Part shown: positions 27,700-38,149 of the stretch, in pieces | How the letters are laid out: each line of letters begins with the position of its first letter | Position numbering within the stretch: the stretch's first letter is position 1 | DNA from: Promethearchaeati archaeon SRVP18_Atabeyarchaeia-1 | GTDB lineage: Archaea; Asgardarchaeota; Atabeyarchaeia; Atabeyarchaeales; Atabeyarchaeaceae | Length of the DNA: 64,000 bases | Reading direction: 5' to 3' | Assembly: GCA_037308085.1 (NCBI GenBank) | Contig: CP147779.1 | Location: 480,001-544,000, forward strand | Translations under genes and position numbers: made by a program | The notes under the pieces: model-generated | What the model was told of the DNA's origin: nothing | Database searches by the model: none | The model's input: the letters and a program-made list of their open reading frames with translations, nothing else

Positions 27700-27804
27700 G
27701 GGCCCGTGGCCTAGTCAGGATAGGGCGCCAGCCTCCTAACTCATTTCTCCCCGCAAACCGGAGAGAGCTGGTGGTCGAGGGTTCAATTCCCTCCGGGCCC
27801 GCCA
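27700..27804 (+). tRNA. tRNA-Arg(CCT) with canonical 37/38 intron (27739-27765)
   Basis: GGGCCCG/CGGGCCC+GCCA; CCAGC/GCTGG stem; BHB helix CTCC/GGAG. Confidence 0.93.
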
Positions 27805-27846: not shown

Positions 27847-28371
27847 ATGTCTCCTTCTCACTCCGCCACCCCGAATATCTCACACCGCAAAGGATTCTAC
27901 AAGATCCACATGGACAAACGCCAGAAAGAAATCTACGGCAGAAAACTAAAAGGAACAAACTACATGTTGCACTTGGGTCCAGAGCTGTTCAACAAAATGA
28001 TGAGGAACCACACGAATAGCATGCAAAGGAAACGATGGGTCCCTTGTGAAAGAGAAGAGAGGATACGGAGAGCGAAAGAAGCTTGCACACTCGAGGAAGC
28101 TCGAAAAAGGACCAGATTACAGTACGAATGGAGGACGCTGACAAAGGAAGGGTTAGAAGAAGAGGTTCGGCAAATGCCGCTAAAGGAGATCGCAGGCAAA
28201 TACAACGTGTCACAAACCCCCACCGTGGCGAGGAAATGCAGGAAACTCGGAATTCCGATACCAGAACGCGGTTACTGGACGAAGGTCTACTGGTCAAGAG
28301 TCAAATCGTTGGAAAGGAATAAGATAGAAAAAGGCGTCCAGCGAGAAAGTGAAACGAACTATCGTAATTGA
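27847..28371 (+). CDS. HTH-like hypothetical protein (IPxPxRGYW motif), start uncertain
   Basis: PLKEIAGKYNVS..TVARKCRKLGIPIPERGYWTK; lies between two convergent tRNAs. Confidence 0.55.
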   Translation: MSPSHSATPNISHRKGFYKIHMDKRQKEIYGRKLKGTNYMLHLGPELFNKMMRNHTNSMQRKRWVPCEREERIRRAKEACTLEEARKRTRLQYEWRTLTKEGLEEEVRQMPLKEIAGKYNVSQTPTVARKCRKLGIPIPERGYWTKVYWSRVKSLERNKIEKGVQRESETNYRN

Positions 28372-28404
28372 TAACGAGCGATGAAATAGATTACAGAAAA
28401 GGAG

Positions 28405-28574
28405 CGCCCTGGGCGGGACTACCGGGGATCATCGCGTGTTGTTCTTGGTTTTTGGGTGATTCCACTCGAACCCGCGTCCTAGGTTTTGTCCCTCTGCGTT
28501 GGGTGTGACAGACCTAGATGTTAACCGCCTCGTGGCCGTCTCACGGTGTGTGAGGAGGCTTGCACCACCAGGGC
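28405..28574 (-). tRNA. tRNA-Asp(GTC) with three introns (D arm, 38/39, T loop)
   Basis: GCCCTGG/CCAGGGC; TAGGT-CTGTCAC-ACCTA after splicing (BHB helix TGTC/GACA); GCGGG-TTCGAGT-CCCGC. Confidence 0.88.
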
Positions 28575-28898
28575 ACCCTGCTTGCTGCTAGTACTACGTT
28601 TGTATGTCTTTTATTCTTTTTGAGGGTTGTTGCTCCTTGTCGGGGTGACATGCTTACCGGAACGAGTATTCTTGGAACGGAGGTCATCAAGCAGTCAGCG
28701 AACTTCGAGTCCAGGCTTCAGACTGGCTCAGGCAAGATCATGCATCTTCAAGAGTCGGTAGGAAAAGGGTTTGGCAAACAGGAACGGCTCTTTCTGGAAA
28801 AGCGTGACGGTCACGTATCGACAAATGGAAGACATAGAACACGCCAAAATATATTTCTTGGATGCGCTCCTATTGTCTATGAGTTGGAGCGGACGCAG

Positions 28899-30113
28899 AT
28901 GGATGTTAACGATGTTGAAACTATAACTGTACTCGGCGCAGGTCACATGGGCCTGGCAATTGCGCAGGTCATCGCAATGTCAGGGTACCAAGTCAATCTA
29001 AGAGACTTGAACAAGGAAATACTTGACAGAAACATAGGTAGGATAAGATATATCCTTACAAGGTACGCCGAGAAAGGGGAGTACCCAAAGAACAACATCG
29101 AACCCACTATGAAGAGAATAAAGCCCTTCACAGATTTGAAAGAGTCGACCAGAAACTCCCAGTACGTTATTGAGACCGTTCCAGAGCAACTCGAACTCAA
29201 ACAGAAAGTCTTCAAAGATGTAGAGAAACTCGTCCCAGAGGACGTGATAATCTCAACCAACACGAGCGCCCTTCCCATAACAGAGATTCAGAGAGGAGCA
29301 AAGAAACCAAACAGAATCGTGGGAACACACTTTTTCAACCCACCTCAAAGAATCAAGCTAATTGAGATAGTATACGGCGCAAAGACAAGCGACGAAACTG
29401 TGAACTTCACACTGAAGCTCATGAAGAAAATAGATAGGGATCCAGTCGTGTGCAGGAAGGACATTCCAGGGTTCTTAGCTAACAGAACAGTAACTACAAT
29501 GCTGAATTTCTCGTCGTGGCTCGTAGATGCAGGCGAGTTCACATGCTCAGAGATAGACTCCGCCTTCCACTACAGGCTCGGACAGCCAATGGGCACATTC
29601 GGCCTAAACGACTTCTTAGGATTAAGGACGACCTACTCAGTGCAGAAATTCATAGAGCAGAGAGAGCCGGAGTGCAAAGTTCCACCAATGTGGGAGGAAT
29701 TGGTGAAATCCGGGCACAACGGCGTCGACACTGGAAAAGGGTTCTACGAGTACCCCGACAAAGTCTGGAGAAAGCCCGAATCGTGGAGCGAGAAGATAGC
29801 AGACAGATACAACCCCAATTGGTCAATGCTCGTCGGAATAAACAGAATGGCACAAATCATAAACGACGGAGCGGCAACAACGGAAGAAGTTGACAAGGCA
29901 GTGAAAATCGGCTACCTAATGCCAGTCGGCTTACTGGAACTCGCTGATCAAATGGGCATAGACAACGTAGTAAAAGAGCTCGAAGCCTTGAAGAAGAGAT
30001 TCGGAAGAATCGAAAGCATGAACTACATGCTAGAGCCGAATCCCCTCCTCAGAGAAAAAGTGAGGAAAGGAGAGTTAGGGTACAAAACAAAGAAGGGATT
30101 CTACAAACACTAA
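28899..30113 (+). CDS. 3-hydroxyacyl-CoA dehydrogenase with tandem C-terminal domains
   Basis: VLGAGHMG, ETVPE, STNTS, GTHFFNP, PGFLANR, GKGFY. Confidence 0.93.
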   Translation: MDVNDVETITVLGAGHMGLAIAQVIAMSGYQVNLRDLNKEILDRNIGRIRYILTRYAEKGEYPKNNIEPTMKRIKPFTDLKESTRNSQYVIETVPEQLELKQKVFKDVEKLVPEDVIISTNTSALPITEIQRGAKKPNRIVGTHFFNPPQRIKLIEIVYGAKTSDETVNFTLKLMKKIDRDPVVCRKDIPGFLANRTVTTMLNFSSWLVDAGEFTCSEIDSAFHYRLGQPMGTFGLNDFLGLRTTYSVQKFIEQREPECKVPPMWEELVKSGHNGVDTGKGFYEYPDKVWRKPESWSEKIADRYNPNWSMLVGINRMAQIINDGAATTEEVDKAVKIGYLMPVGLLELADQMGIDNVVKELEALKKRFGRIESMNYMLEPNPLLREKVRKGELGYKTKKGFYKH

Positions 30114-30771
30114 CCAAATGATAATCGTCGTTGCCTTTCTCTTAAGATATTGGCTTGCCCCCCGTGATTTCGCGTGGACACATTTCAGATGCTTTGCTTG
30201 GACTACCACAACTTCTTCACAGATGATCTGTGGGCCACTCAGCCATCCACCACAAATTCACGACCGCCAATTAAGTGTAGACCGACGACCATCCCGAGAA
30301 TCAAGAAGAATGTCCAATTCATTATTCGTCTAATCCATCTTCAAACGGATTCGGGAATGACCTAGTCCGAAGCCTTAGGGGTTTCGAGCTCGAGCCTAAA
30401 GCACTTAGAAAGTGCGGGGAACTCAGAGTTCATAAGGAAGATCGCTTTGTCAGTTGCAGAAGTGCTCAAGAACGAGAGGCCCATAAACCGACAATTTCGG
30501 GGATACGGAAAAGACTAGAACCCCAAATATGCCGGTCTACAGACCTGCAGCCTTCTTATCTTCGGGGCCGGAAATCGCTTCTCTCAACAAGCCATTGTAC
30601 CTCGATTCCAGTGGTCTTTGTAGAAGAATAGGATCATGTCGTTCCAGTAGTTGCCAATGGCTGCAACTTAAGGACGCGGGCTACGAAAAGAAAAAAAAGG
30701 AGAGCAATCAAGCAGATAATCTGATCTATTATCCTTATCCTGCTAGTCGACTACCGTAGGTGTTCCTTGAC

Positions 30772-30927
30772 TTAGCTCACTGCTTCGCCTGCTTTGTGCG
30801 CTGCGTGGCCCACTGCCTTGCCAGTCTTCTTCCCCGCTTTCTTCACTGCTTTGCCTGTCTTCTTCGTCGTCGACTTGGTCTTTCTAGATACCTTCTTAGC
30901 CTTCTTCCCAAATCCAAATGGGCTCGT
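30772..30927 (-). CDS. Small Lys-rich repetitive peptide (51 aa), apparent ACG start
   Basis: AGGTGAT RBS 5 nt upstream of ACG; SPFGFGKKAKKVSRKTKSTTKKTGKAVKKAGKKTGKAVGHAAHKAGEAVS. Confidence 0.5.
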   Translation of the reverse strand, partial: TSPFGFGKKAKKVSRKTKSTTKKTGKAVKKAGKKTGKAVGHAAHKAGEAVS

Positions 30928-31606
30928 TCTTGATCACCTAACATGAGTATATCTGCCCTCAAGCAGATAAGGCTATGGAGTCAGCTATCCACCGATGAAG
31001 CTTGTGGACCTGCAACTCAGGATATTATTTTATTGCCTATCCAGAATACCGTGCGCCTAAGTCAATCTCGTGTTGCCCTTCTCAGCTTCAGACAGATGAA
31101 AATCTCACATATATTGCCTGCGACCGTAGTTTCGTGAAGTTGAACTAGGGAAAAGACTAGAACCACAAGAATCTGTCCTTTTAGACCCACATACTTCTTT
31201 TTTGGCGACTAATCCCCGGGCAGAGTCGGTGATACAGCCTTCTCTCAAAAATCGGACAGCATTCAAAGGCAGTTTTTTATAAGTGGTTCAAGTCTCACGG
31301 GCTGGTCGCAGGCATTCTTCCGTTTGTGATATCTGGCGCCAGATAATTCGTTGCGTGCGAACACGTTAAAATGTTCACGTGGCAAACCAGTGTCCTGATC
31401 GGACGAGTGGTGTAAGGTCGAAATGGGCGCAAAAAACGAGAAAGGAAGCGAAAACGTTGCCCCTCCCGCGCCTGCCATCAAGAAGGGGAGCGAAACGGTG
31501 AGAAAGAAGAAGCAAATAAAGCGGACTCTGGAAAAGATAAAGGAACCCTACCCTAGACACGAGAAAAAAATGAAGTATTCTAGTAATTGCTTCATTTACC
31601 GGGCGC

Positions 31607-31885
31607 CTATTTCTTCATTTCCTTTTGCTTCAGCTTCTTATCCCGGTTCGCGACGTATGCGTCTGCCGCCTTCTTATTAAGCTTACGAAGCTCCGTGGCT
31701 ATAAGGTCAGACAGTTTTGCCGTAGTGACGTCTACCATGTTAGCTACTTTCTTGGCGATATCTTTGGCTACCTGTGCTGCCTGTTTGGCCGTCGCGCCGG
31801 CTTTCTCAACTGCAGCCACAATCTTGGATTCTGAGAATTCCTCTATTCTTCCATCTCTCTTCTTCACTTTCACCATGTCAACCAT
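31607..31885 (-). CDS. Stand-alone ATP-cone domain protein
   Basis: VKKRDGRIEEFSESKI...VTTAKLSDLIATEL. Confidence 0.85.
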   Translation of the reverse strand: MVDMVKVKKRDGRIEEFSESKIVAAVEKAGATAKQAAQVAKDIAKKVANMVDVTTAKLSDLIATELRKLNKKAADAYVANRDKKLKQKEMKK

Positions 31886-32110
31886 ATCCTTGCTTGACTG
31901 CTCTTGTAAGAGAAAGGGTTGCATTAAATACCTTGTGCCAACAGAGAACCTCTCACTAAAGAACTGAAGAGGTCGCCATTACTACAGGCATGTCTGCCCC
32001 CGCATGGAACAGAATCGAACCCACTACGCCGTCGATCTTCCGCATGACCCTCCCCCAAAACGCTAGGCCAAGCAAGAAGAATATCGGCAAGAGGACACTT
32101 CCAGCCAAGA

Positions 32111-32389
32111 ATGAATGAAGAGTTTGGGCGCCCGTACACTCTGCTTGGAGTCAAGTTTGGCCCAGGACTAATCATCGCCTCCTTACCATTCGCATTCGCA
32201 CACGTTTTGAATCCTTTCAATCCATTTGCCGGTCGCTTCGATCTAGCCCCGTGGTGGGGTCTATTCACCTTCTTTGTCGGACTATTCTTCGGACTCATCA
32301 GGGAAAAAACAGGTAGCATACTGGCATCAGGAATAGCGCACCGGCTCTCAGATGCAGTGGGACAAGGATCTATGCTCGCCTTCTCCTAG
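32111..32389 (+). pseudogene. C-terminal fragment of a CPBP (CAAX/Abi) intramembrane protease
   Basis: FAFAH, FGLIREKTGS..A..IAH; N-terminal EE motif missing. Confidence 0.7.
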
Positions 32390-32543
32390 CAACACAAAGT
32401 TCCTTATTGCTCCATAGGGCCACATTCTTCAATTTGACCACCGGTACGTAGTCTTAGCGCTCATACTGGTGATCGCATGTATTTCAATGCTAAGGGATAA
32501 CAGAGGTGCCCAAGACCGAGGTAGGTTGCAGCTGAGTTCCTGT

Positions 32544-33491
32544 TCAGGTCATGACGCCTATAGCGAAGAATGTGAAAATGAAGGCGTCTTGGACGAAGTG
32601 GATTGTCCATGCCCAGAAGAACCCCTTGGTCTCCAGCAGGCTCTTGCCTAGGAACCATCCCAGAAAGGTCGAAAGAATGACACCTATTATGCTATTTGGT
32701 ACACCATAGAAGTGACCGAGCCCAAAGTAAATGGCGGTGATTAAGAGTGCCTGGTGCTTGCCAAGGACTTTCCAGAGTTCCGAGAGGGGCGCAGCCCTTA
32801 ATGTGAATTCCTCGTTAAATGCGTTAATCGCAGCGATCAGCACGGCAACCGGAATCAAAGGTAGTCCATTTACGAAGTCATTCAACGTAGGCCTTGTTGC
32901 CATAAACAGGTAAGCGAGCGTAACTACGCTAAAGACTACCGCAAAAATAGATCCTATCTTGACCCACGTATCTGTTTCCTTGCTGTTAATTAGCTTGGAC
33001 GGCTCAACAGGCGCATTGATTTTGCCCTTGATGAGGAAGAAGTCTGGGCGTCGGCGTCCCAACAGCACCAGAAACACAATTATGATCAATGCGGGCGTGA
33101 GTCTTAGAAGATGAATTCCGACTGACAAGGGCGTCTGATTCTGCAACACTGGGCCCAGGGAACTATCGCGAACGACAAGGAGCAAACCCCAATTCCAGCC
33201 ACCTCCGTACCCGCACAAGAATATTATCAGTAGGATCACGAGAAATGGTCTAAGCGGCCGCAACGATGAGGAAGCAAAGGCAAGAGCAAGCAGTACTATC
33301 AGCCCGACAGTTGGCACCCACGGCCACCAATCCATAACCCCGGGCGCAACTGAGTTCCAGAAAACTACTGCAAGAGTACTCACAAGCAATGTCGCTACCC
33401 AAGCGACAACAAGTGAGCCCCGATTTGGAGTTATATCTGCTTTCTCGACTTGCTTCTTCATCATATTCTCCACTATGAAGGGGTCCTCCAT
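32544..33491 (-). CDS. CPBP family intramembrane metalloprotease
   Basis: NEEFTLR, FGLGH, WTIHFVQD; multi-TM. Confidence 0.88.
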   Translation of the reverse strand: MEDPFIVENMMKKQVEKADITPNRGSLVVAWVATLLVSTLAVVFWNSVAPGVMDWWPWVPTVGLIVLLALAFASSSLRPLRPFLVILLIIFLCGYGGGWNWGLLLVVRDSSLGPVLQNQTPLSVGIHLLRLTPALIIIVFLVLLGRRRPDFFLIKGKINAPVEPSKLINSKETDTWVKIGSIFAVVFSVVTLAYLFMATRPTLNDFVNGLPLIPVAVLIAAINAFNEEFTLRAAPLSELWKVLGKHQALLITAIYFGLGHFYGVPNSIIGVILSTFLGWFLGKSLLETKGFFWAWTIHFVQDAFIFTFFAIGVMT

Positions 33492-34072
33492 GGATCTTGC
33501 TTGGGTGTCTTTATCTAGAGACTATTTAAAACTTGTCACAAGAATCAAGGCATCTAATGGCTTACTGGGTCTAGGCGTCCATCAGTCTCAATTGAGTCGG
33601 TTGTAGTGGCTTCTTCGGCGCGGGATCAAAAAGGGATCAGGTGTTTACCCGAAGTAACTAGCGAACTAATCATTCTTGGTGAGCTAGTCGCAGAACCAAG
33701 TCTGAGGGTCTTGAGATCGATCCTAAAGCAATGGTGCTGTGCGGGTACATAAGAGTTCGTGAGGACATTGGCTCTATCGGTAAGAGGGTGTTAGAGAAAG
33801 AGAGGTCTGGTAGGACACGAGTTCGGGGACACAGAAAAGACTAGAAGCACAAGAATCTATCCTTACAGACTTACATTCTTCTTTTTTTGGTTTGATATCG
33901 TCTCCCTAGCAGATCGTGCAGTGAGCATGTGTGAAGAATGGAGTAGGAGCATAGTGTAACGGTAACTGCGGCGACCCACACTCAACAGCGTCCATTAATG
34001 CTAAATAGCGCCTTGTACTCAGTGCTTGCACTGCAACTATCCAGAAGAACGAAGGAGGAGAAGGGAAGAGGC

Positions 34073-34390
34073 ATGTGCGCTAATCTGATAGTGATAGCTT
34101 GGGTACCGCAAAACAAGGCAAGCAAGATAGCTGAAGTGTTCGCTAAGAATCCAACTATCAAGGGAGTCAAGAGAGTGGGCAAATGTCCCTATGCAACTCC
34201 AACCGATCGCGGCGTAAGGATCATAGACATATTCGAAGTTGAAGACACAAAAGTTGCCGAGGCGATCAGAGAGATAACCAAATGGGAACAGCCATACGCG
34301 AATGCGGTTCCGGAGATGTCCTACTCGCTTGAGCCTCTATTGACGCCAGAAGAGGCTTTCGTGGCAATAGGGATGCAGCCTCCAAAGTAG
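34073..34390 (+). CDS. Hypothetical protein (about 105 aa)
   Basis: Clean ORF with upstream TATA-like and purine-rich RBS; ferredoxin-like pattern. Confidence 0.6.
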   Translation: MCANLIVIAWVPQNKASKIAEVFAKNPTIKGVKRVGKCPYATPTDRGVRIIDIFEVEDTKVAEAIREITKWEQPYANAVPEMSYSLEPLLTPEEAFVAIGMQPPK

Positions 34391-34767
34391 ACTTCGATCC
34401 CTGTAAACAGAGAACCACCCAATGAAAGACTATCTAGAACCACCCTTCTTTTTCTACTCTCTATTCTCGTTAGCCCTTATTGCACGGGCGTGTGAGACAC
34501 ATAGGATTTCGGAGTTCATGAAGAAGCTCGCTTTGCAGGTTGCGAACGCGTCGGAGAATGAGATGCCTAAACAGGAGAAAAGACTAGAACCACGAATATG
34601 AGTGGTTAGAGACCTACAACCTTTTTTTTGACGGGCGAAGAGACACTGGCGGGTTATATCATAATATAGGATAGAACACTATGTCACTTGACTCATCGTT
34701 TGAAGCCATTATTGTGATCTCCCAATATTCTTGGCAGTGCAGGCTGATGGAAAAGGGGATTGTCCGC

Positions 34768-35064
34768 ATGAAGGCGAAGCTTAAGGACATAATATCCATT
34801 GTCAAGGCGCTTGAAGGACAAATAAGGAAAGAGTACAAGGCAGAGGTCATTGGAATTTTCGGTTCCTATGCACGGGGGGAACAGCAGGCGAGTAGTGATG
34901 TGGACATGCTCGTGAAGTTTCTGGAAGGAGCAACTCTGTTTGACTTTGTTGGTCTTGGAGATTTTCTTGAGGATAAACTCAACGTGAAGGTAGACGTTGT
35001 CTCGGAGAGAGCAATAAGGGTGGAGTTGCGGGACCAGATACTGAAAGAGGTCGTGACAGTTTGA
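34768..35064 (+). CDS. Minimal nucleotidyltransferase antitoxin (MNT)
   Basis: FGSYARG..SDVD, KVDVV. Confidence 0.92.
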   Translation: MKAKLKDIISIVKALEGQIRKEYKAEVIGIFGSYARGEQQASSDVDMLVKFLEGATLFDFVGLGDFLEDKLNVKVDVVSERAIRVELRDQILKEVVTV

Positions 35065-35399
35065 AGAGGGACATAAAGCTCTTTGTCAAAGACATAATCT
35101 CTGCTATGGACTCAATTGAGAAATTTGTCAGCGGTATGACTATTGACGAGATTCAAAAGGATGACAAGACCTCTAGTGCTGTGATTAGGAAGTTTGAAAT
35201 CATCGGAGAGGCGACAAAACATATTCCAGACGCGTTGAGAATTAAACACTCCGAGATTCCCTGGAGCAGAATGTCAGGAATGAGAGACAGACTGGTTCAT
35301 GCTTATCTTGGGATAGACTATAGGCTTGTGTGGGATGCCATTAAGATCGATATACCGAATCTCAAGCCCAAATTCGAAAGGATCTTGGTCGATCTTTAG
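35061..35399 (+). CDS. HEPN (DUF86) ribonuclease toxin
   Basis: EIIGEA, IPW..M.GMRDRLVHAY (RX4H); overlaps the MNT stop. Confidence 0.92.
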   Translation: MKRDIKLFVKDIISAMDSIEKFVSGMTIDEIQKDDKTSSAVIRKFEIIGEATKHIPDALRIKHSEIPWSRMSGMRDRLVHAYLGIDYRLVWDAIKIDIPNLKPKFERILVDL

Positions 35400-35689
35400 G
35401 ATGGACAAGGGTTAGGATTAGACCCTTAGCACCAAGAATTTGCTTCGAGCCCAAGCTTTCTGAAGAAGCCCACATTGTAGGTTGCAAACGCATTGAGGAA
35501 TGAAATGCCTAAACAGGAGAAAAGACTAGAACCACAAACATGTGTGGTTAGAGACCTACACATCCTTTTTCTGCGACTACGAATAATCTTCTATTTCGAA
35601 ACCCGCCCTGTAATTGAGACGGGCGATCATATACAAGTATTCTGGCCAGGAAGTATTATATGCCAAGGCGCACGCCTACACAACAGTTC

Positions 35690-36197
35690 CAGTCTATATA
35701 GGTTTACATAGGTGTAGGTCATACAAATTTAGGTATAACTGAAAGACTCTACGGTCTCAGGAGCCACAGGTACAAGGAGGTTGTCGAAAGCGCTAAGAAC
35801 CTATTCACTCAGCCATAACCAGGGCGAAGCACTTAGCGGTTTAATGGCAGCCTACAACACCACCCTCAATCCCATACTGCAGTGCGTCTGGCAGACGACA
35901 GAGTGGAAGCGGCACCAGATCAAAGGCGAGAAGCAGTACAGGCTCTACCCCATCTTCAGAAAGGATAACGCGTTCAGGCGGGAGCTGAGGAATAGGCACC
36001 TAGCGAGATGGAGCTACGCTGCTCACTGGGTTGACTCCGCCATGAAGACAGCCTTCAGCATCATGGCATCGTGGAAAAGGAATTACGACAAAGGTGAGAG
36101 AAGGAGAACATGTCCACGTGCGGGGAGGCTCTTTTTGCGGGTCAAGCAGACACTCCTCAAACTTGAGGGGGACACGCTCAGGATCACCGTGAAGTGA
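35690..36197 (+). mobile_element. Internally deleted IS607-like remnant: tnpA C-terminal tail plus truncated tnpB
   Basis: 35744-35818 encodes RLYGLRSHRYK (IS607 serine recombinase tail); overlapping ORF 35781-36197 has HWVDSA.KTA.SI..SW..NY and lacks RuvC. Confidence 0.75.
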
Positions 36198-36254
36198 AAA
36201 AGAAGCCCTAGCGCTTGTAACCTAGTAGAACGTGACAAGGGAGACAGTTGAGAA

Positions 36255-36926
36255 TTGGCGAAATCAAGTTCTAATATTGGATTGCTTAGAAAAGCGTCAT
36301 TATGGATCTGCGTAGCTGGCATCTGGCAACTTCTTCCAGTCATCGGGTTCATGATCCTAGTGTTCGGAATGCTCTACACGATATCAACTATGATACCGAT
36401 CCCTATAGAGGCACTCCACTCGATCTCTAACTCGTACTTGCTAGCATCCGCTATACTGTGGATCACGATACCGATTACCATCATTCTTGGCTACTACTCG
36501 TACAAAGTTGGCGTCCTTTATGGTTTCGGCTCACTCAAATTGACAGGGATCTGTAACATTATCATGACACTAGCCTACCCTGTTCTCTTCATTGGGTTGA
36601 GCCAATTCGTTCAAATGTTATCCTCGATCTTACCGTCGCCACCAGTTGACTATCCTCAGTTAATGCAAGGCTGGATAGGCTTACTTCTGATCGGAGGAGT
36701 GTTCGTTTGCTTCTTTGGCCTCATTTCGCTCATAGCGTTCATATTTGGTTCTTCCGCTATGAAGAAGAATTCTGGCATTGGAAAGTTCGGGAAGGCAATG
36801 TGGTTATCAATCGTGGGGCTGCTAATATGGTTCCTGATCCCCATTGCAGTAGCCGAATTTGGGTCCGGACTTAGAAAGCTATCGAGACCTAATACAGCAA
36901 GACCAACTGGTGCGGCGAAACAGTAA
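36255..36926 (+). CDS. Multi-pass membrane protein
   Basis: About 5 hydrophobic segments. Confidence 0.65.
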   Translation: MAKSSSNIGLLRKASLWICVAGIWQLLPVIGFMILVFGMLYTISTMIPIPIEALHSISNSYLLASAILWITIPITIILGYYSYKVGVLYGFGSLKLTGICNIIMTLAYPVLFIGLSQFVQMLSSILPSPPVDYPQLMQGWIGLLLIGGVFVCFFGLISLIAFIFGSSAMKKNSGIGKFGKAMWLSIVGLLIWFLIPIAVAEFGSGLRKLSRPNTARPTGAAKQ

Positions 36927-37333
36927 ACTCCCAGATCCGCAACAAAACGACTGATTTGTCCTCCCAAGCTCAGAGTCGAGCCCTTGACGACTAGAATCTC
37001 TCTCTAGCCTAGGTTTTCAGAAACACCCGCTTTCTGGATTGAGATGCGCGGACAGGAGAAAAGACTAGAACCACAAACATGTGTAGTCCTCTGAAATCTA
37101 AGTAAAACCCTTTTTTTCTGGCTGCACACGCGTCTCGTCGTTTGGTAGCTAGCTGACAAAGTGAAGCTAGTTCCTACGGAGAAGATCAGGAGACTTGGCG
37201 CGCGTTGTGACCGAAGATCACCCGCTGCTAGGAAGTATCATATATCGTAGCGCACGCGATATCAATGGTTATATATTTGGCTCATATGCAAGTACCGTAA
37301 TCATCCCGGTTTTGAAGGAAGAGGAGATTCAGG

Positions 37334-37900
37334 ATGTCAAGAACTGAGTCCGAAAATGGTTCAGAAGCCTGGAAGAAATTCCTGGGAAAACACTGGAGCA
37401 TAGTTGCCATGTTTGTAGTGGCAGGTCTTCTTGCATTTGTAGGCGCAGTTTGCGTCTTCTTATGGTTCGTTGGGAATGCTCAATCGACAGGCATCGTACC
37501 TGCGGCTTTGGGTCTTTGGACAATGGGAAGCGTAGTGACTTTCATTTTGTATTTGGTCTTCTGGGAGCTTCTTCTTATTGGGATCCCTGTGGCCTTAGTC
37601 GCAGTGGCTGGTTGGCAATGGTGGAAAAGGCTACCTGATAAGGAGAAGAGGGAATATCACCCCTTTGGCAAACGCTCACGTGCAAGACGCGGTGGAAGTG
37701 GAATACCCCTATTGTTCTTCGTTGCGTTCTGCATCAAGGTCTTTATCGATGGAAACTGGAACGTTGCCATTGCTACTTGGACCTTGAACTATGTTGTAAA
37801 TTCGATTATCGCAATACTGATCTGGACGGCAATTATTTTCGGAATTCCTATCGCTATAGGGCTCGTCTGGTGGATACACCATCAAGTTAAGAAGCCCTAA
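37334..37900 (+). CDS. Membrane protein
   Basis: About 4 TM segments, GAGGAG RBS. Confidence 0.7.
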   Translation: MSRTESENGSEAWKKFLGKHWSIVAMFVVAGLLAFVGAVCVFLWFVGNAQSTGIVPAALGLWTMGSVVTFILYLVFWELLLIGIPVALVAVAGWQWWKRLPDKEKREYHPFGKRSRARRGGSGIPLLFFVAFCIKVFIDGNWNVAIATWTLNYVVNSIIAILIWTAIIFGIPIAIGLVWWIHHQVKKP

Positions 37901-38149
37901 CTTCTTTCTTGCTTGCATTGGTCAGATTTTCAGAATCGTTGAAATTCAGAAGGCGGAACTACTGATGAGTGAACGCACTATACTGAGAAAGTTGGGAGCC
38001 GACACCCACATAAATGAGACATCGACATGCAGAGATCAAGGAAAATCCCGGATTCAGCAAGACAGAGTGGGCTCTGTAGCGTATAAGAAATCTGAAACAT
38101 GAGGGTTTCCTAGCGCTGGGATTCAATACACTAGAGTTGTGGTTGAGCT

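What the first reader, a model, noticed from the sequence alone, without database searches (positions are those of the whole stretch)
30170..37110. Cassette-like array: six co-oriented repeats separate unrelated cargo genes
Seen: the core GAAAAGACTAGAA recurs at 30508, 31150, 33834, 34577, 35519 and 37058, always intergenic and on the same strand, and usually followed by an AGACCTACA-like motif and a T tract (copy 5 forms the hairpin TGTGT-GGTT/GACC-T-ACACA). Between copies lie a Lys-rich peptide; an ATP-cone gene plus CPBP proteases; a hypothetical; an MNT-HEPN toxin-antitoxin pair; and an IS607 relic plus a membrane protein. The repeats share a 3' end and differ in 5' extent. They do not match attC (GTTRRRY/RYYYAAC) or CRISPR spacing. 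Inference: an integron-like or serial site-specific integration system with an undescribed att site.
Basis: partly seen in the sequence, partly recalled or inferred. Interest (0 to 1): 0.75.

Follow-up and report, generated by a model that had tools for sequence, protein, structure and literature searches.

The report
Gene-cassette array with unknown recombination site
In a wetland Asgard archaeon (Atabeyarchaeia), one chromosomal spot is split into small, unrelated gene packets by copies of a DNA site found nowhere else in the genome; relatives have the same site at the same spot with entirely different genes, so it looks like a gene-capture hot spot whose enzyme is unknown.

Summary
GAAAAGACTAGAA occurs six times, co-oriented, and only here in the 2.8-Mb genome. 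A seventh, degenerate copy lies at 34422-34454.

The genome is an Atabeyarchaeia (Asgard) chromosome. I found 17 copies of the same site in six assemblies or contigs. In the three cases where both flanks are assembled, the array sits in the same interval between a tRNA/LAGLIDADG gene cluster and rpoH. The cargo is different every time.

Each copy is a mosaic: a 5' arm (about 140, 110 or 25 nt, or none), an almost invariant 13-nt core, and a 3' arm of one of three types ending in a T tract. The 5' and 3' arm types are reassorted between copies, which places past crossovers inside the core. Cargo also moves between arrays. The 188-aa gene just after copy 6 is 87% identical to a gene that sits between atpB-tail repeats in the sister genome.

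No integrase, attC structure, dif-like arms or parent gene was found. My best reading (0.55) is serial site-specific insertion of integrase-less cassettes by an enzyme acting in trans.

This scan had already flagged this stretch, and similar arrays in these genomes.

The parts
27700..27801 (+). Intron-containing tRNA gene; conserved left flank of the locus
   Evidence: Rfam tRNA, 55.5 bits. The same tRNA is present in G001 and G002.
27847..28371 (+). N-terminally truncated LAGLIDADG-family homing-endonuclease gene (174 aa; 306-336 aa in relatives)
   Evidence: Aligns to the C-terminal half of the 322-aa G002 protein, which hits PF14528. The family has 5 copies in this genome, 3 of them next to tRNA genes.
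28395..28590 (-). Probable multi-intron tRNA gene; the array starts on its 5' side
   Evidence: Strongly conserved in 6 lineages. It has the acceptor pair GCCCTGG/CCAGGGC and a T arm GCGGGTTCGAG...TCCCGC. ARAGORN calls a tRNA in the L170 orthologue, which lacks one intron.
28899..30113 (+). 3-hydroxyacyl-CoA dehydrogenase; first cargo unit, absent from this position in relatives
   Evidence: Pfam 3HCDH_N and 3HCDH. The ORF alone is 80-82% nt identical to genomes of another family, and it is not in the G002 or L168 arrays.
30379..30565 (+). Site copy 1: 140-nt arm (L17 type) + core at 30508 + H1-type 3' arm
30763..31021 (.). Cargo 2: Lys-rich minus-strand frame, plus a 45-nt relic of a dispersed IS-type end (30978-31021)
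31131..31213 (+). Site copy 2: short arm (S type, ...GAACTAGG) + core at 31150 + H2-type 3' arm
31607..33491 (-). Cargo 3: ATP-cone protein, CPBP/Rce1-like fragments and a 315-aa CPBP protease
   Evidence: Pfam
33706..33890 (+). Site copy 3: L17 arm (decayed) + core at 33834 + H2-type 3' arm
33998..34390 (+). Cargo 4: 130-aa hypothetical protein
   Evidence: No Pfam family. A homologue in G001 contig C94 lies without this site.
34422..34454 (+). Seventh, degenerate copy: core-like GAAAGACTATCTAGAACCAC joined directly to a T tract
34470..34632 (+). Site copy 4: 110-nt arm (Ls type) + core at 34577 + H3-type 3' arm
34681..35399 (+). Cargo 5: MNT-HepT toxin-antitoxin pair
   Evidence: Pfam. Homology to G001 C160 spans 34652-35401, which lies exactly between the two site copies.
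35409..35576 (+). Site copy 5: Ls arm + core at 35519 + H3-type 3' arm
35682..36926 (+). Cargo 6: IS607-family relic (tnpA lost, tnpB truncated) and a 223-aa membrane protein
36966..37121 (+). Site copy 6: partial Ls arm + core at 37058. The 3' arm diverges after ATGTGT and may be the original right flank.
37250..37953 (+). 188-aa gene with its upstream region; a unit that also occurs in the atpB-tail array of the sister genome
   Evidence: 87% nt identity to G002 593.5 kb, where atpB-tail repeats flank it.

Best explanation
This is a chromosomal gene-capture hot spot of Atabeyarchaeia. It is a row of small gene packets separated by direct copies of a locus-specific recombination (att-like) site.

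Proposed mechanism: small circular DNAs each carry one copy of the site, built as 5' arm - core GAAAAGACTAGAAsC - 3' arm. They are inserted one after another by a site-specific recombinase encoded elsewhere. That enzyme could come from a visiting mobile element or from a host gene. The crossover falls inside the invariant core. Each junction therefore joins the right-end arm of one packet to the left-end arm of the next. The T tract and dyad of the 3' arm probably also terminate transcription between packets.

Shown:
- the site and its uniqueness to this locus;
- its conservation at one chromosomal position across lineages;
- complete cargo turnover;
- mosaic arms;
- cargo found in other contexts.

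Inferred: that recombination is site-specific, that circles exist, and which enzyme acts.
For: (1) The core occurs only at this locus, in G000 and in G001 and G002. It is absent from IMG/VR.

(2) I found 17 copies in six assemblies or contigs: G000 has 6, G002 has 4, L168 has 3, L039 has 2, G001 has 1 and L038 has 1. In G000, G002 and L168 they lie in the same interval between HisRS-PilT-tRNA-LAGLIDADG and rpoH.

(3) The cargo differs everywhere.
- G000: dehydrogenase, ATP-cone/CPBP, MNT-HepT and others.
- G002: amidohydrolase, methyltransferase, GNAT.
- L168: MFS transporter, DUF4185, SDH protease.
- L039: DUF4382.
- G001: ICMT and an alpha/beta hydrolase.

(4) The arms are mosaic.
- c1's nearest 5' arm is G2c (66% identity), but its nearest 3' arms are J3 and G2d (78% and 75%), whose 5' arms are unrelated to c1's (22-28%).
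- c2 versus c3: 26% in the 5' arm, 81% in the 3' arm.
- G2c versus c4: 28% in the 5' arm, 83% in the 3' arm.
- The switch lies within or left of AACCxCA, which is inside the invariant stretch.

(5) The 13-mer is identical in 12 of 17 copies, while the arms are only about 20-85% alike.

(6) Cargo boundaries coincide with site boundaries. The 188-aa unit sits behind copy 6 here, but between atpB-tail repeats in G002.

(7) Archaeal elements are known to insert at 3'-distal parts of genes, and elements with tyrosine recombinases are known to form arrays by reusing one site (Krupovic et al. 2019, PMC6563490).
Against: - No recombinase gene lies in or next to any of the arrays. PF00589 and PF00239 hits are all far away, and the only tyrosine recombinase shared by the three genomes is XerA.
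- The site is unlike this genome's dif-like sites.
- No copy of the site was found on any plasmid, virus or resident mobile element, so no attP donor is known.
- No dyad symmetry surrounds the invariant core itself. The 11-6-11 dyad lies to its right and is weak in the H1 and H2 types.
Logan contigs merely break at the repeats.
- Cargo lies on both strands.
Confidence: 0.55

Rival explanations
1. Homology-driven accretion. Incoming DNA carries a stretch similar to the repeat and enters by ordinary homologous recombination (a single crossover, or exchange between two repeats). The repeats are portable homology anchors, and no dedicated recombinase exists.
For: - No recombinase lies at any array.
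- The same genomes hold several arrays built on quite different repeats, such as the atpB tail. One general mechanism would explain that more simply than many dedicated enzymes.
- The arms are long, up to 140 nt on the 5' side and at least 110 nt on the 3' side.
Against: - A sharply invariant 13-nt core sits inside arms that are only 20-85% alike. That is not expected from homology alone.
- Arm types switch at one place, the core, rather than at scattered points.
- Several copies (c2, G2a, G2d, J3, M38) have almost no 5' homology to offer.
Confidence: 0.2
2. A non-mobile functional module. The repeat is a bidirectional transcription terminator or insulator (A-rich tract, dyad, T tract) that spread by local duplication. 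Cargo turnover came from unrelated events.
For: The consensus scan calls terminator-like hairpins on the minus strand at copies 4, 5 and 6, and on the plus strand at copy 5. Every copy ends in a T tract, which is the archaeal termination signal (established knowledge).
Against: - A generic terminator would be spread over the genome, but this one occurs at a single locus per genome.
- The stem is not conserved, and RNAalifold finds no consensus structure.
- The unpaired 13-mer and the 110-140-nt arms are conserved across genera.
- Mosaic arms need recombination between copies.
Confidence: 0.1
3. Relics of transposable-element ends. For example, right ends or guide-RNA regions of IS200/IS605/IS607-TnpB elements, or MITEs, that piled up in one place.
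For: - An IS607-family relic lies between copies 5 and 6, an intact TnpB lies 1.6 kb upstream of the G001 copy, and an IS-end relic lies between copies 1 and 2.
- The long arms have fixed left boundaries, like a discrete element.
Against: - No copy exists outside the locus in any genome, and none of the intact IS copies carries the site.
- The arm translations hit neither the TnpB zinc-ribbon family nor any other family.
- The site keeps the same chromosomal position across lineages.
Confidence: 0.05
4. A true integron cassette cluster without an integrase (CALIN). Such clusters are reported to be enriched in Asgard archaea (Ghaly et al. 2022, PMC9668308).
For: The layout is a row of ORFs with a repeated site between them. 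CALINs without IntI are common, and integrons were detected in about 8% of Asgard genomes.
Against: - The dyad is a single 28-nt 11-6-11 unit, not an attC of 55 nt or more with R''/L''/L'/R' boxes.
- CTAGAAC fits RYYYAAC at only 4 of 7 positions.
- GTTAGAG misses the final Y of GTTRRRY, and it is absent from the H1 and H2 copies.
- attC sites vary in sequence and keep their structure. Here the sequence is invariant and the structure is not kept.
- No IntI is present.
Confidence: 0.03

Closest known systems
Tandem accretion of integrative elements and integrase-less satellites at one att site. Examples are CIMEs beside ICESt1-type elements, tycheposon islands with cargo-only units between partial tRNA repeats (bioRxiv 10.1101/2020.12.28.424599), and archaeal arrays formed by reuse of an integration site (PMC6563490).
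   Same: Direct repeats of an att-like site bound small cargo units. The array sits at a fixed chromosomal spot, its content varies between lineages, and many units have no integrase.
   Different: The repeat is not the 3' end of any tRNA or of any identifiable gene. No unit in any of the six arrays carries an integrase. The units are mostly one or two genes (0.6-2.7 kb). The host is an Asgard archaeon.
Integrons and CALINs, including the archaeal ones of Ghaly et al. 2022 (PMC9668308)
   Same: A row of gene-sized cassettes each followed by a recombination-type site. The integrase may act in trans.
   Different: The site is not an attC. There is no IntI or attI. Cargo lies on both strands. The site sequence is conserved, rather than its fold.
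dif/pdif modules and Xer-exploiting elements (IMEX)
   Same: Short sites with an 11-6-11 layout bound gene modules. The recombinase is a host enzyme encoded far away.
   Different: The arms are unrelated to this genome's dif-like sites. The sites are all co-oriented rather than alternating. The invariant part lies outside the dyad.
Gene capture by partitioning SSV-type integrases in archaeal chromosomes (She et al. 2001, recalled from memory; Badel et al. 2020, PMC7253208)
   Same: Foreign genes are trapped in an archaeal chromosome between direct repeats. The repeats read partly like coding sequence.
   Different: No int(N) or int(C) halves were detected. The arm peptides resemble no integrase. 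No tRNA sequence occurs in the repeat.
Other gene-tail arrays flagged by this scan in the same genomes (atpB tail, RuBisCO-like gene tail)
   Same: Same organisms, same layout, no integrase. At least one cargo unit is shared between the two kinds of array.
   Different: Those arrays start at an intact gene whose tail is the repeat. Here no parent gene exists in any lineage examined.

Membership tests
Integron / CALIN | IntI (a tyrosine recombinase with the IntI-specific domain) next to the array | tested here: not met
   PF00589 matches in G000, G001 and G002 are all far from the locus. The nearest in G000 is about 1 Mb away.
Integron / CALIN | attC sites: R''(RYYYAAC)-L''...L'-R'(GTTRRRY), 55-141 nt, conserved fold but variable sequence | tested here: not met
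   Only a 28-nt 11-6-11 dyad is present. CTAGAAC and GTTAGAG fit poorly, and GTT is absent from the H1 and H2 copies. There is no consensus fold. IntegronFinder/HattCI was not available.
Integron / CALIN | Cassette ORFs mostly co-oriented with the site at their 3' end | tested here: inconclusive
   Roughly two thirds of cargo genes are co-oriented. The ATP-cone/CPBP genes, the G002 methyltransferase and the L168 DUF4185 gene are reversed.
Tandem array of integrated elements at an att site | Direct repeats of one att core bounding each unit | tested here: met
Tandem array of integrated elements at an att site | The repeat is the displaced 3' end of a target gene (tRNA or protein) that stays intact at one end of the array | tested here: not met
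   The arms read weakly like coding sequence: 10 synonymous versus 16 non-synonymous codon changes, with the stop codon kept (TAG to TAA). No parent gene was found in 300 genomes of the phylum, 5.8 billion protein clusters or 1.84 billion representatives. No intact gene abuts any first copy.
Tandem array of integrated elements at an att site | At least some units, or a matching free element, encode the integrase | tested here: not met
   None in six arrays. The site is absent from IMG/VR contigs.
Tandem array of integrated elements at an att site | Excision, circular forms or presence/absence among strains | not testable with these tools
Logan contigs break at the repeats.
dif / pdif modules (Xer-dependent) | Sites resemble the host dif site (Xer-binding arms around a 6-nt spacer) | tested here: not met
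   This genome's dif-like sites read ACTGCATATAA-CTCGGC-TTATGTGAAGC. The site here reads CTAGAACCACA-AACATG-TGTGGTTAGAG.
IS200/IS605/IS607-TnpB element ends | The same end sequence on intact copies of the element elsewhere | tested here: not met
   No copy outside the locus. The arm peptides give no TnpB hit.

The most novel reading that the evidence does not exclude
Atabeyarchaeia, and perhaps other Asgard archaea, run a general integron-like gene-capture system without a linked integrase. Several chromosomal loci each keep their own conserved att site, and one- or two-gene cassettes are inserted, shuffled between arrays and exchanged between coexisting lineages. The enzyme acts in trans and is not yet recognised. 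It could be a host recombinase, a helper element's integrase, or the neighbouring LAGLIDADG endonuclease cutting the 13-20-nt core and driving repair-mediated insertion.
Probability: 0.3. Interest if true: 0.8.

Novelty: new variant of a known kind. Interest (0 to 1): 0.62.

Why it matters
Asgard archaea are the closest known relatives of eukaryotes, and how they acquire genes is debated. This locus shows gene-sized units, including a toxin-antitoxin pair and metabolic genes, entering one conserved site. One of these, a dehydrogenase, is 80-82% identical to a gene in another Asgard family.

The site is conserved across lineages, the cargo turns over completely, and no linked integrase is present. 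The published survey of mobile elements in these same genomes (PMC11529989) does not describe such arrays in its main text. If an enzyme can be tied to the 13-nt core, it would define a new archaeal gene-capture route, and possibly a new site-specific recombination tool.

Tried and rejected
- **Parent gene of the coding-like 5' arm: not found.** I used a six-frame search of 300 genomes of the phylum (the one extra hit, in G013, is a roadblock-type protein). I also used the word-indexed protein search with 'longer' lengths and a profile search of 1.84 billion representatives (the two hits are tandem-repeat artefacts). Pfam gave nothing.
- **Arm as the C-terminus of a recombinase: rejected.** There is no similarity to the four resident tyrosine recombinases.
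- **Arm as the tail of the LAGLIDADG gene: rejected**.
- **LAGLIDADG gene as the array's own enzyme: not supported, not excluded.**
  - The family has five copies in G000, three of them beside tRNA genes and without such arrays.
  - The copy here is truncated.
  - Still, in contig L039 the gene again neighbours the array, in inverted relative orientation and without a tRNA.
- **Known RNA family: none**.
- **Conserved hairpin: none by RNAalifold**.
- **Site on viruses: none.** The 117 IMG/VR pattern hits were all chance matches.
- **Metagenome pattern scan:** 11 stretches, of which only L038 and L039 are real.
- **Strain variants from Logan contigs: uninformative.** The contigs end at the shared 30-mer. 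One look-up found nothing.
- **Supplementary table of the 2024 paper, with element coordinates:** not held.
- **A decayed atpB-tail fragment left of the 188-aa gene (37187-37236):** only a weak local alignment, not significant.

Full report
**1. The observation**

The 13-mer GAAAAGACTAGAA occurs six times in the window, at 30508, 31150, 33834, 34577, 35519 and 37058, always on the + strand. Shuffles give 0.18 expected copies. In the whole 2,808,651-bp genome these are the only exact copies. A nucleotide profile built from them finds nothing else above noise.

A seventh, degenerate copy lies at 34422-34454. There a core-like GAAAGACTATCTAGAACCAC runs straight into a T tract.

- 3-hydroxyacyl-CoA dehydrogenase, ATP-cone, CPBP/Rce1-like, MNT and HepT genes.
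- A Lys-rich minus-strand frame.
- An IS607-family relic at 35682-36194. Full-length genomic copies of it carry a serine recombinase that the relic has lost.

**2. Organism and setting**

The tRNA at 27700-27801 contains an intron, and rpoH and an intein-bearing rpoB follow the region. The sister genome G002 is CP147780.1, Candidatus Atabeyarchaeum deiterrae Atabeyarchaeia-2. The window therefore comes from an Atabeyarchaeia (Asgard) chromosome, most likely the 'Atabeya-1' genome of Valentin-Alvarado et al. 2024 (PMC11529989).

That paper reports 14 integrated elements in this genome, but its main text describes no cassette array. Its supplement was not available.

The gene order is: HisRS, a PilT-like ATPase, the tRNA, a truncated LAGLIDADG gene, a probable multi-intron tRNA on the minus strand, then the array, a luciferase-like monooxygenase, and rpoH/rpoB.

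**3. The same site in relatives, with other cargo**

A profile search finds four co-oriented copies in the syntenic tRNA-to-rpoH interval of G002, and one in G001. A scan of metagenome contigs adds L038 (1 copy) and L039 (2 copies). Following LAGLIDADG orthologues led to the JGI contig L168, which is fully syntenic from HisRS to rpoB and holds three copies. That makes 17 copies in six assemblies or contigs.

The cargo is different in every case:
- G002: amidohydrolase, SAM methyltransferase, a 287-aa hypothetical, then GNAT.
- L168: MFS transporter, DUF4185, SDH protease.
- L039: DUF4382.
- G001: ICMT methyltransferase upstream; an alpha/beta hydrolase and GNAT downstream.

No copy lies elsewhere in G001 or G002. 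None is in IMG/VR.

**4. Anatomy of the site**

The consensus across the 17 copies is aGAAAAgACTAGAA.C.CAAa.aTGtgTg.TTA.aGACctaCa..ct..TTtttt. The 13-mer is identical in 12 of the 17 copies.

The 5' arm comes in discrete classes with fixed left boundaries:
- About 140 nt (L17): c1, c3, G2b, G2c.
- About 110 nt (Ls, lacking a 17-nt block): c4, c5, c6, G1, J1, M39b.
- About 25 nt ending in GARCTAGG (S): c2, G2d, J3.
- No arm: G2a, M38, M39a.

The 3' arm falls into three types, H1, H2 and H3. In some copies it stays conserved for at least 110 nt.

To the right of the core lies an imperfect 11-6-11 dyad, CTAGAAsCACA-N6-TGTGGTTAGAG. Summed complementarity is 74-81 of 126 for that axis, against 35 +/- 14 for other geometries. 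The dyad is weak in H1 and H2 copies, and RNAalifold finds no consensus fold.

With the A-rich core on one side and the T tract on the other, the site also reads as a bidirectional terminator.

**5. Mosaic arms**

The nearest relative of a copy's 5' arm is usually not the nearest relative of its 3' arm:
- c1 pairs with G2c on the 5' side (66%), but with J3 and G2d on the 3' side (78% and 75%). Their 5' arms are unrelated to c1's (22-28%).
- c2 versus c3: 26% in the 5' arm, 81% in the 3' arm.
- G2c versus c4: 28% in the 5' arm, 83% in the 3' arm.

The switch lies at or left of AACCxCA, which is inside the invariant stretch. This is what recombination between sites at a common core would leave behind.

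Within G000 the arm types parse simply:
- L17-core-H2 sites flank the ATP-cone/CPBP packet.
- Ls-core-H3 sites flank the MNT-HepT packet and the IS-relic/membrane-protein packet.
- The small c1-to-c2 packet has the arms (S...H1) of the terminal site seen in G002 and L168.

This parse is inference.

**6. Is the 5' arm a gene tail?**

In one frame, c1 and G2c read ...SEFIRKIALSVAEVLKNERPINRQFRGYGKD* and ...SEFMRKIAFTVAEVLKNRRSVNQHFRAHRKN*. The codon changes are 10 synonymous against 16 non-synonymous, compared with 6:18 and 2:21 in the other frames. The stop codon is kept, as TAG in c1 and TAA in G2c.

No parent protein was found:
- 300 genomes of the phylum.
- 5.8 billion protein clusters.
- 1.84 billion representatives.
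- Pfam.
- The resident integrases.
- The LAGLIDADG protein.

The arm may be a relic of an extinct or unsampled gene, or simply part of the site. I leave this open.

**7. Cargo moves**

The MNT-HepT pair has a 74%-identical homologue in G001 contig C160. The homology spans 34652-35401, exactly the stretch between two site copies, and C160 has no such site.

The dehydrogenase ORF alone is 80-82% identical to genomes of another Asgard family, and it is absent from the other arrays.

The 188-aa gene behind copy 6 (37250-37953) is 87% identical to a G002 segment 25 kb from the G002 array. There it lies between two repeats that match the atpB-tail repeats of G000 at 594-605 kb. So units pass between arrays built on different repeats.

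**8. What enzyme?**

None is visible.
- Tyrosine recombinase matches are all distant, and only the XerA-type gene is shared by the three genomes.
- The site does not resemble this genome's dif-like sites.
- Serine recombinases are IS607-type and lie elsewhere.
- The LAGLIDADG gene borders the array in G000, G002, L168 and L039. In L039 it is in inverted relative orientation and has no tRNA nearby. However, the family has five copies in G000, mostly beside tRNA genes and without arrays, and the local copy is truncated. I treat this adjacency as probably synteny, but not excluded as mechanism.

**9. Verdict**

The best-supported reading (0.55) is serial site-specific insertion of small integrase-less units at a locus-specific att-like site, with the enzyme acting in trans.

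Rivals:
- Homology-driven accretion (0.2).
- A purely regulatory terminator module (0.1).
- Transposon-end relics (0.05).
- A true integron cluster (0.03).

It works like tandem accretion of integrative elements and their satellites, and it looks like an integron. It fails the membership tests of integrons, dif modules and IS ends. It also lacks both the intact target gene and the integrase that define classical accretion arrays.

**10. Earlier scan notes**

This stretch had been flagged before (e1-4831452, e1-5499263, e1-5499260). Similar integrase-less arrays were noted at the atpB tail, at a RuBisCO-like gene tail and at dif-like sites in these genomes.

I re-derived the atpB repeats and the dif-like sites myself. 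I used the other notes only as leads.

Noticed in passing
window 28395-28590, minus strand: The 'GC-rich structured spacer' after the LAGLIDADG gene is strongly conserved in six lineages. It has a perfect tRNA acceptor pair (GCCCTGG/CCAGGGC) and a T arm split by an insert. ARAGORN calls a tRNA in the L170 orthologue, which lacks that insert. It is probably a multi-intron tRNA gene that Rfam and ARAGORN miss in this genome. The anticodon was not settled.
   Followed up: partly
window 30978-31021; genome copies at 1137507, 1663406, 1785581, 1936787, 1949540, 1958700, 2605478, 2771386: A dispersed repeat of about 45 nt with a sharp left boundary (GTCAGTTACCCACCGCTGAAGCTTGTGGGCTTGCAACTCGG...). In several genomic copies it continues into a longer shared sequence. 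It looks like the end of an insertion sequence or a TnpB-associated element, and only the first 45 nt survive here.
   Followed up: partly
genome G000:C1:451029-451142 and 452007-452120 (outside the window): The 3' end of the 16S rRNA gene (…GGATCACCTCCT) and about 80 nt after it are duplicated about 1 kb downstream at 74% identity. This may be another displaced gene-end copy bounding an insertion.
   Followed up: no
genome G000:C1:446665, 464851, 507898, 783237, 825131: There are five paralogues of one free-standing LAGLIDADG endonuclease family. Three lie within about 0.7 kb of tRNA genes. The family has over 2,500 relatives, mostly in Asgard archaea.
   Followed up: partly
window 28899-30113: The 3-hydroxyacyl-CoA dehydrogenase ORF is 80-82% nt identical to genes in two genomes of a different Asgard family (G028, G037). 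Flanking core genes of the sister genus are only 73-81% identical. This suggests recent transfer between coexisting Asgard lineages. The listed 517-aa ORF has a 113-codon extension with no family signal, so the true start is probably the ATG at 28899.
   Followed up: partly
L039:6757-10861 (metagenome contig Ga0315309_1000310): Beside the array in this relative lie a second LAGLIDADG+HTH protein (419 aa) and a 355-aa TIR-domain protein. This suggests a defence-type neighbourhood.
   Followed up: no
window 32111-32389 (+) and 31924-32319 (-): A 92-aa Rce1-like fragment on the + strand overlaps a 131-aa minus-strand ORF with no family. It is probably a broken second CPBP gene inside the ATP-cone/CPBP packet.
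   Followed up: no
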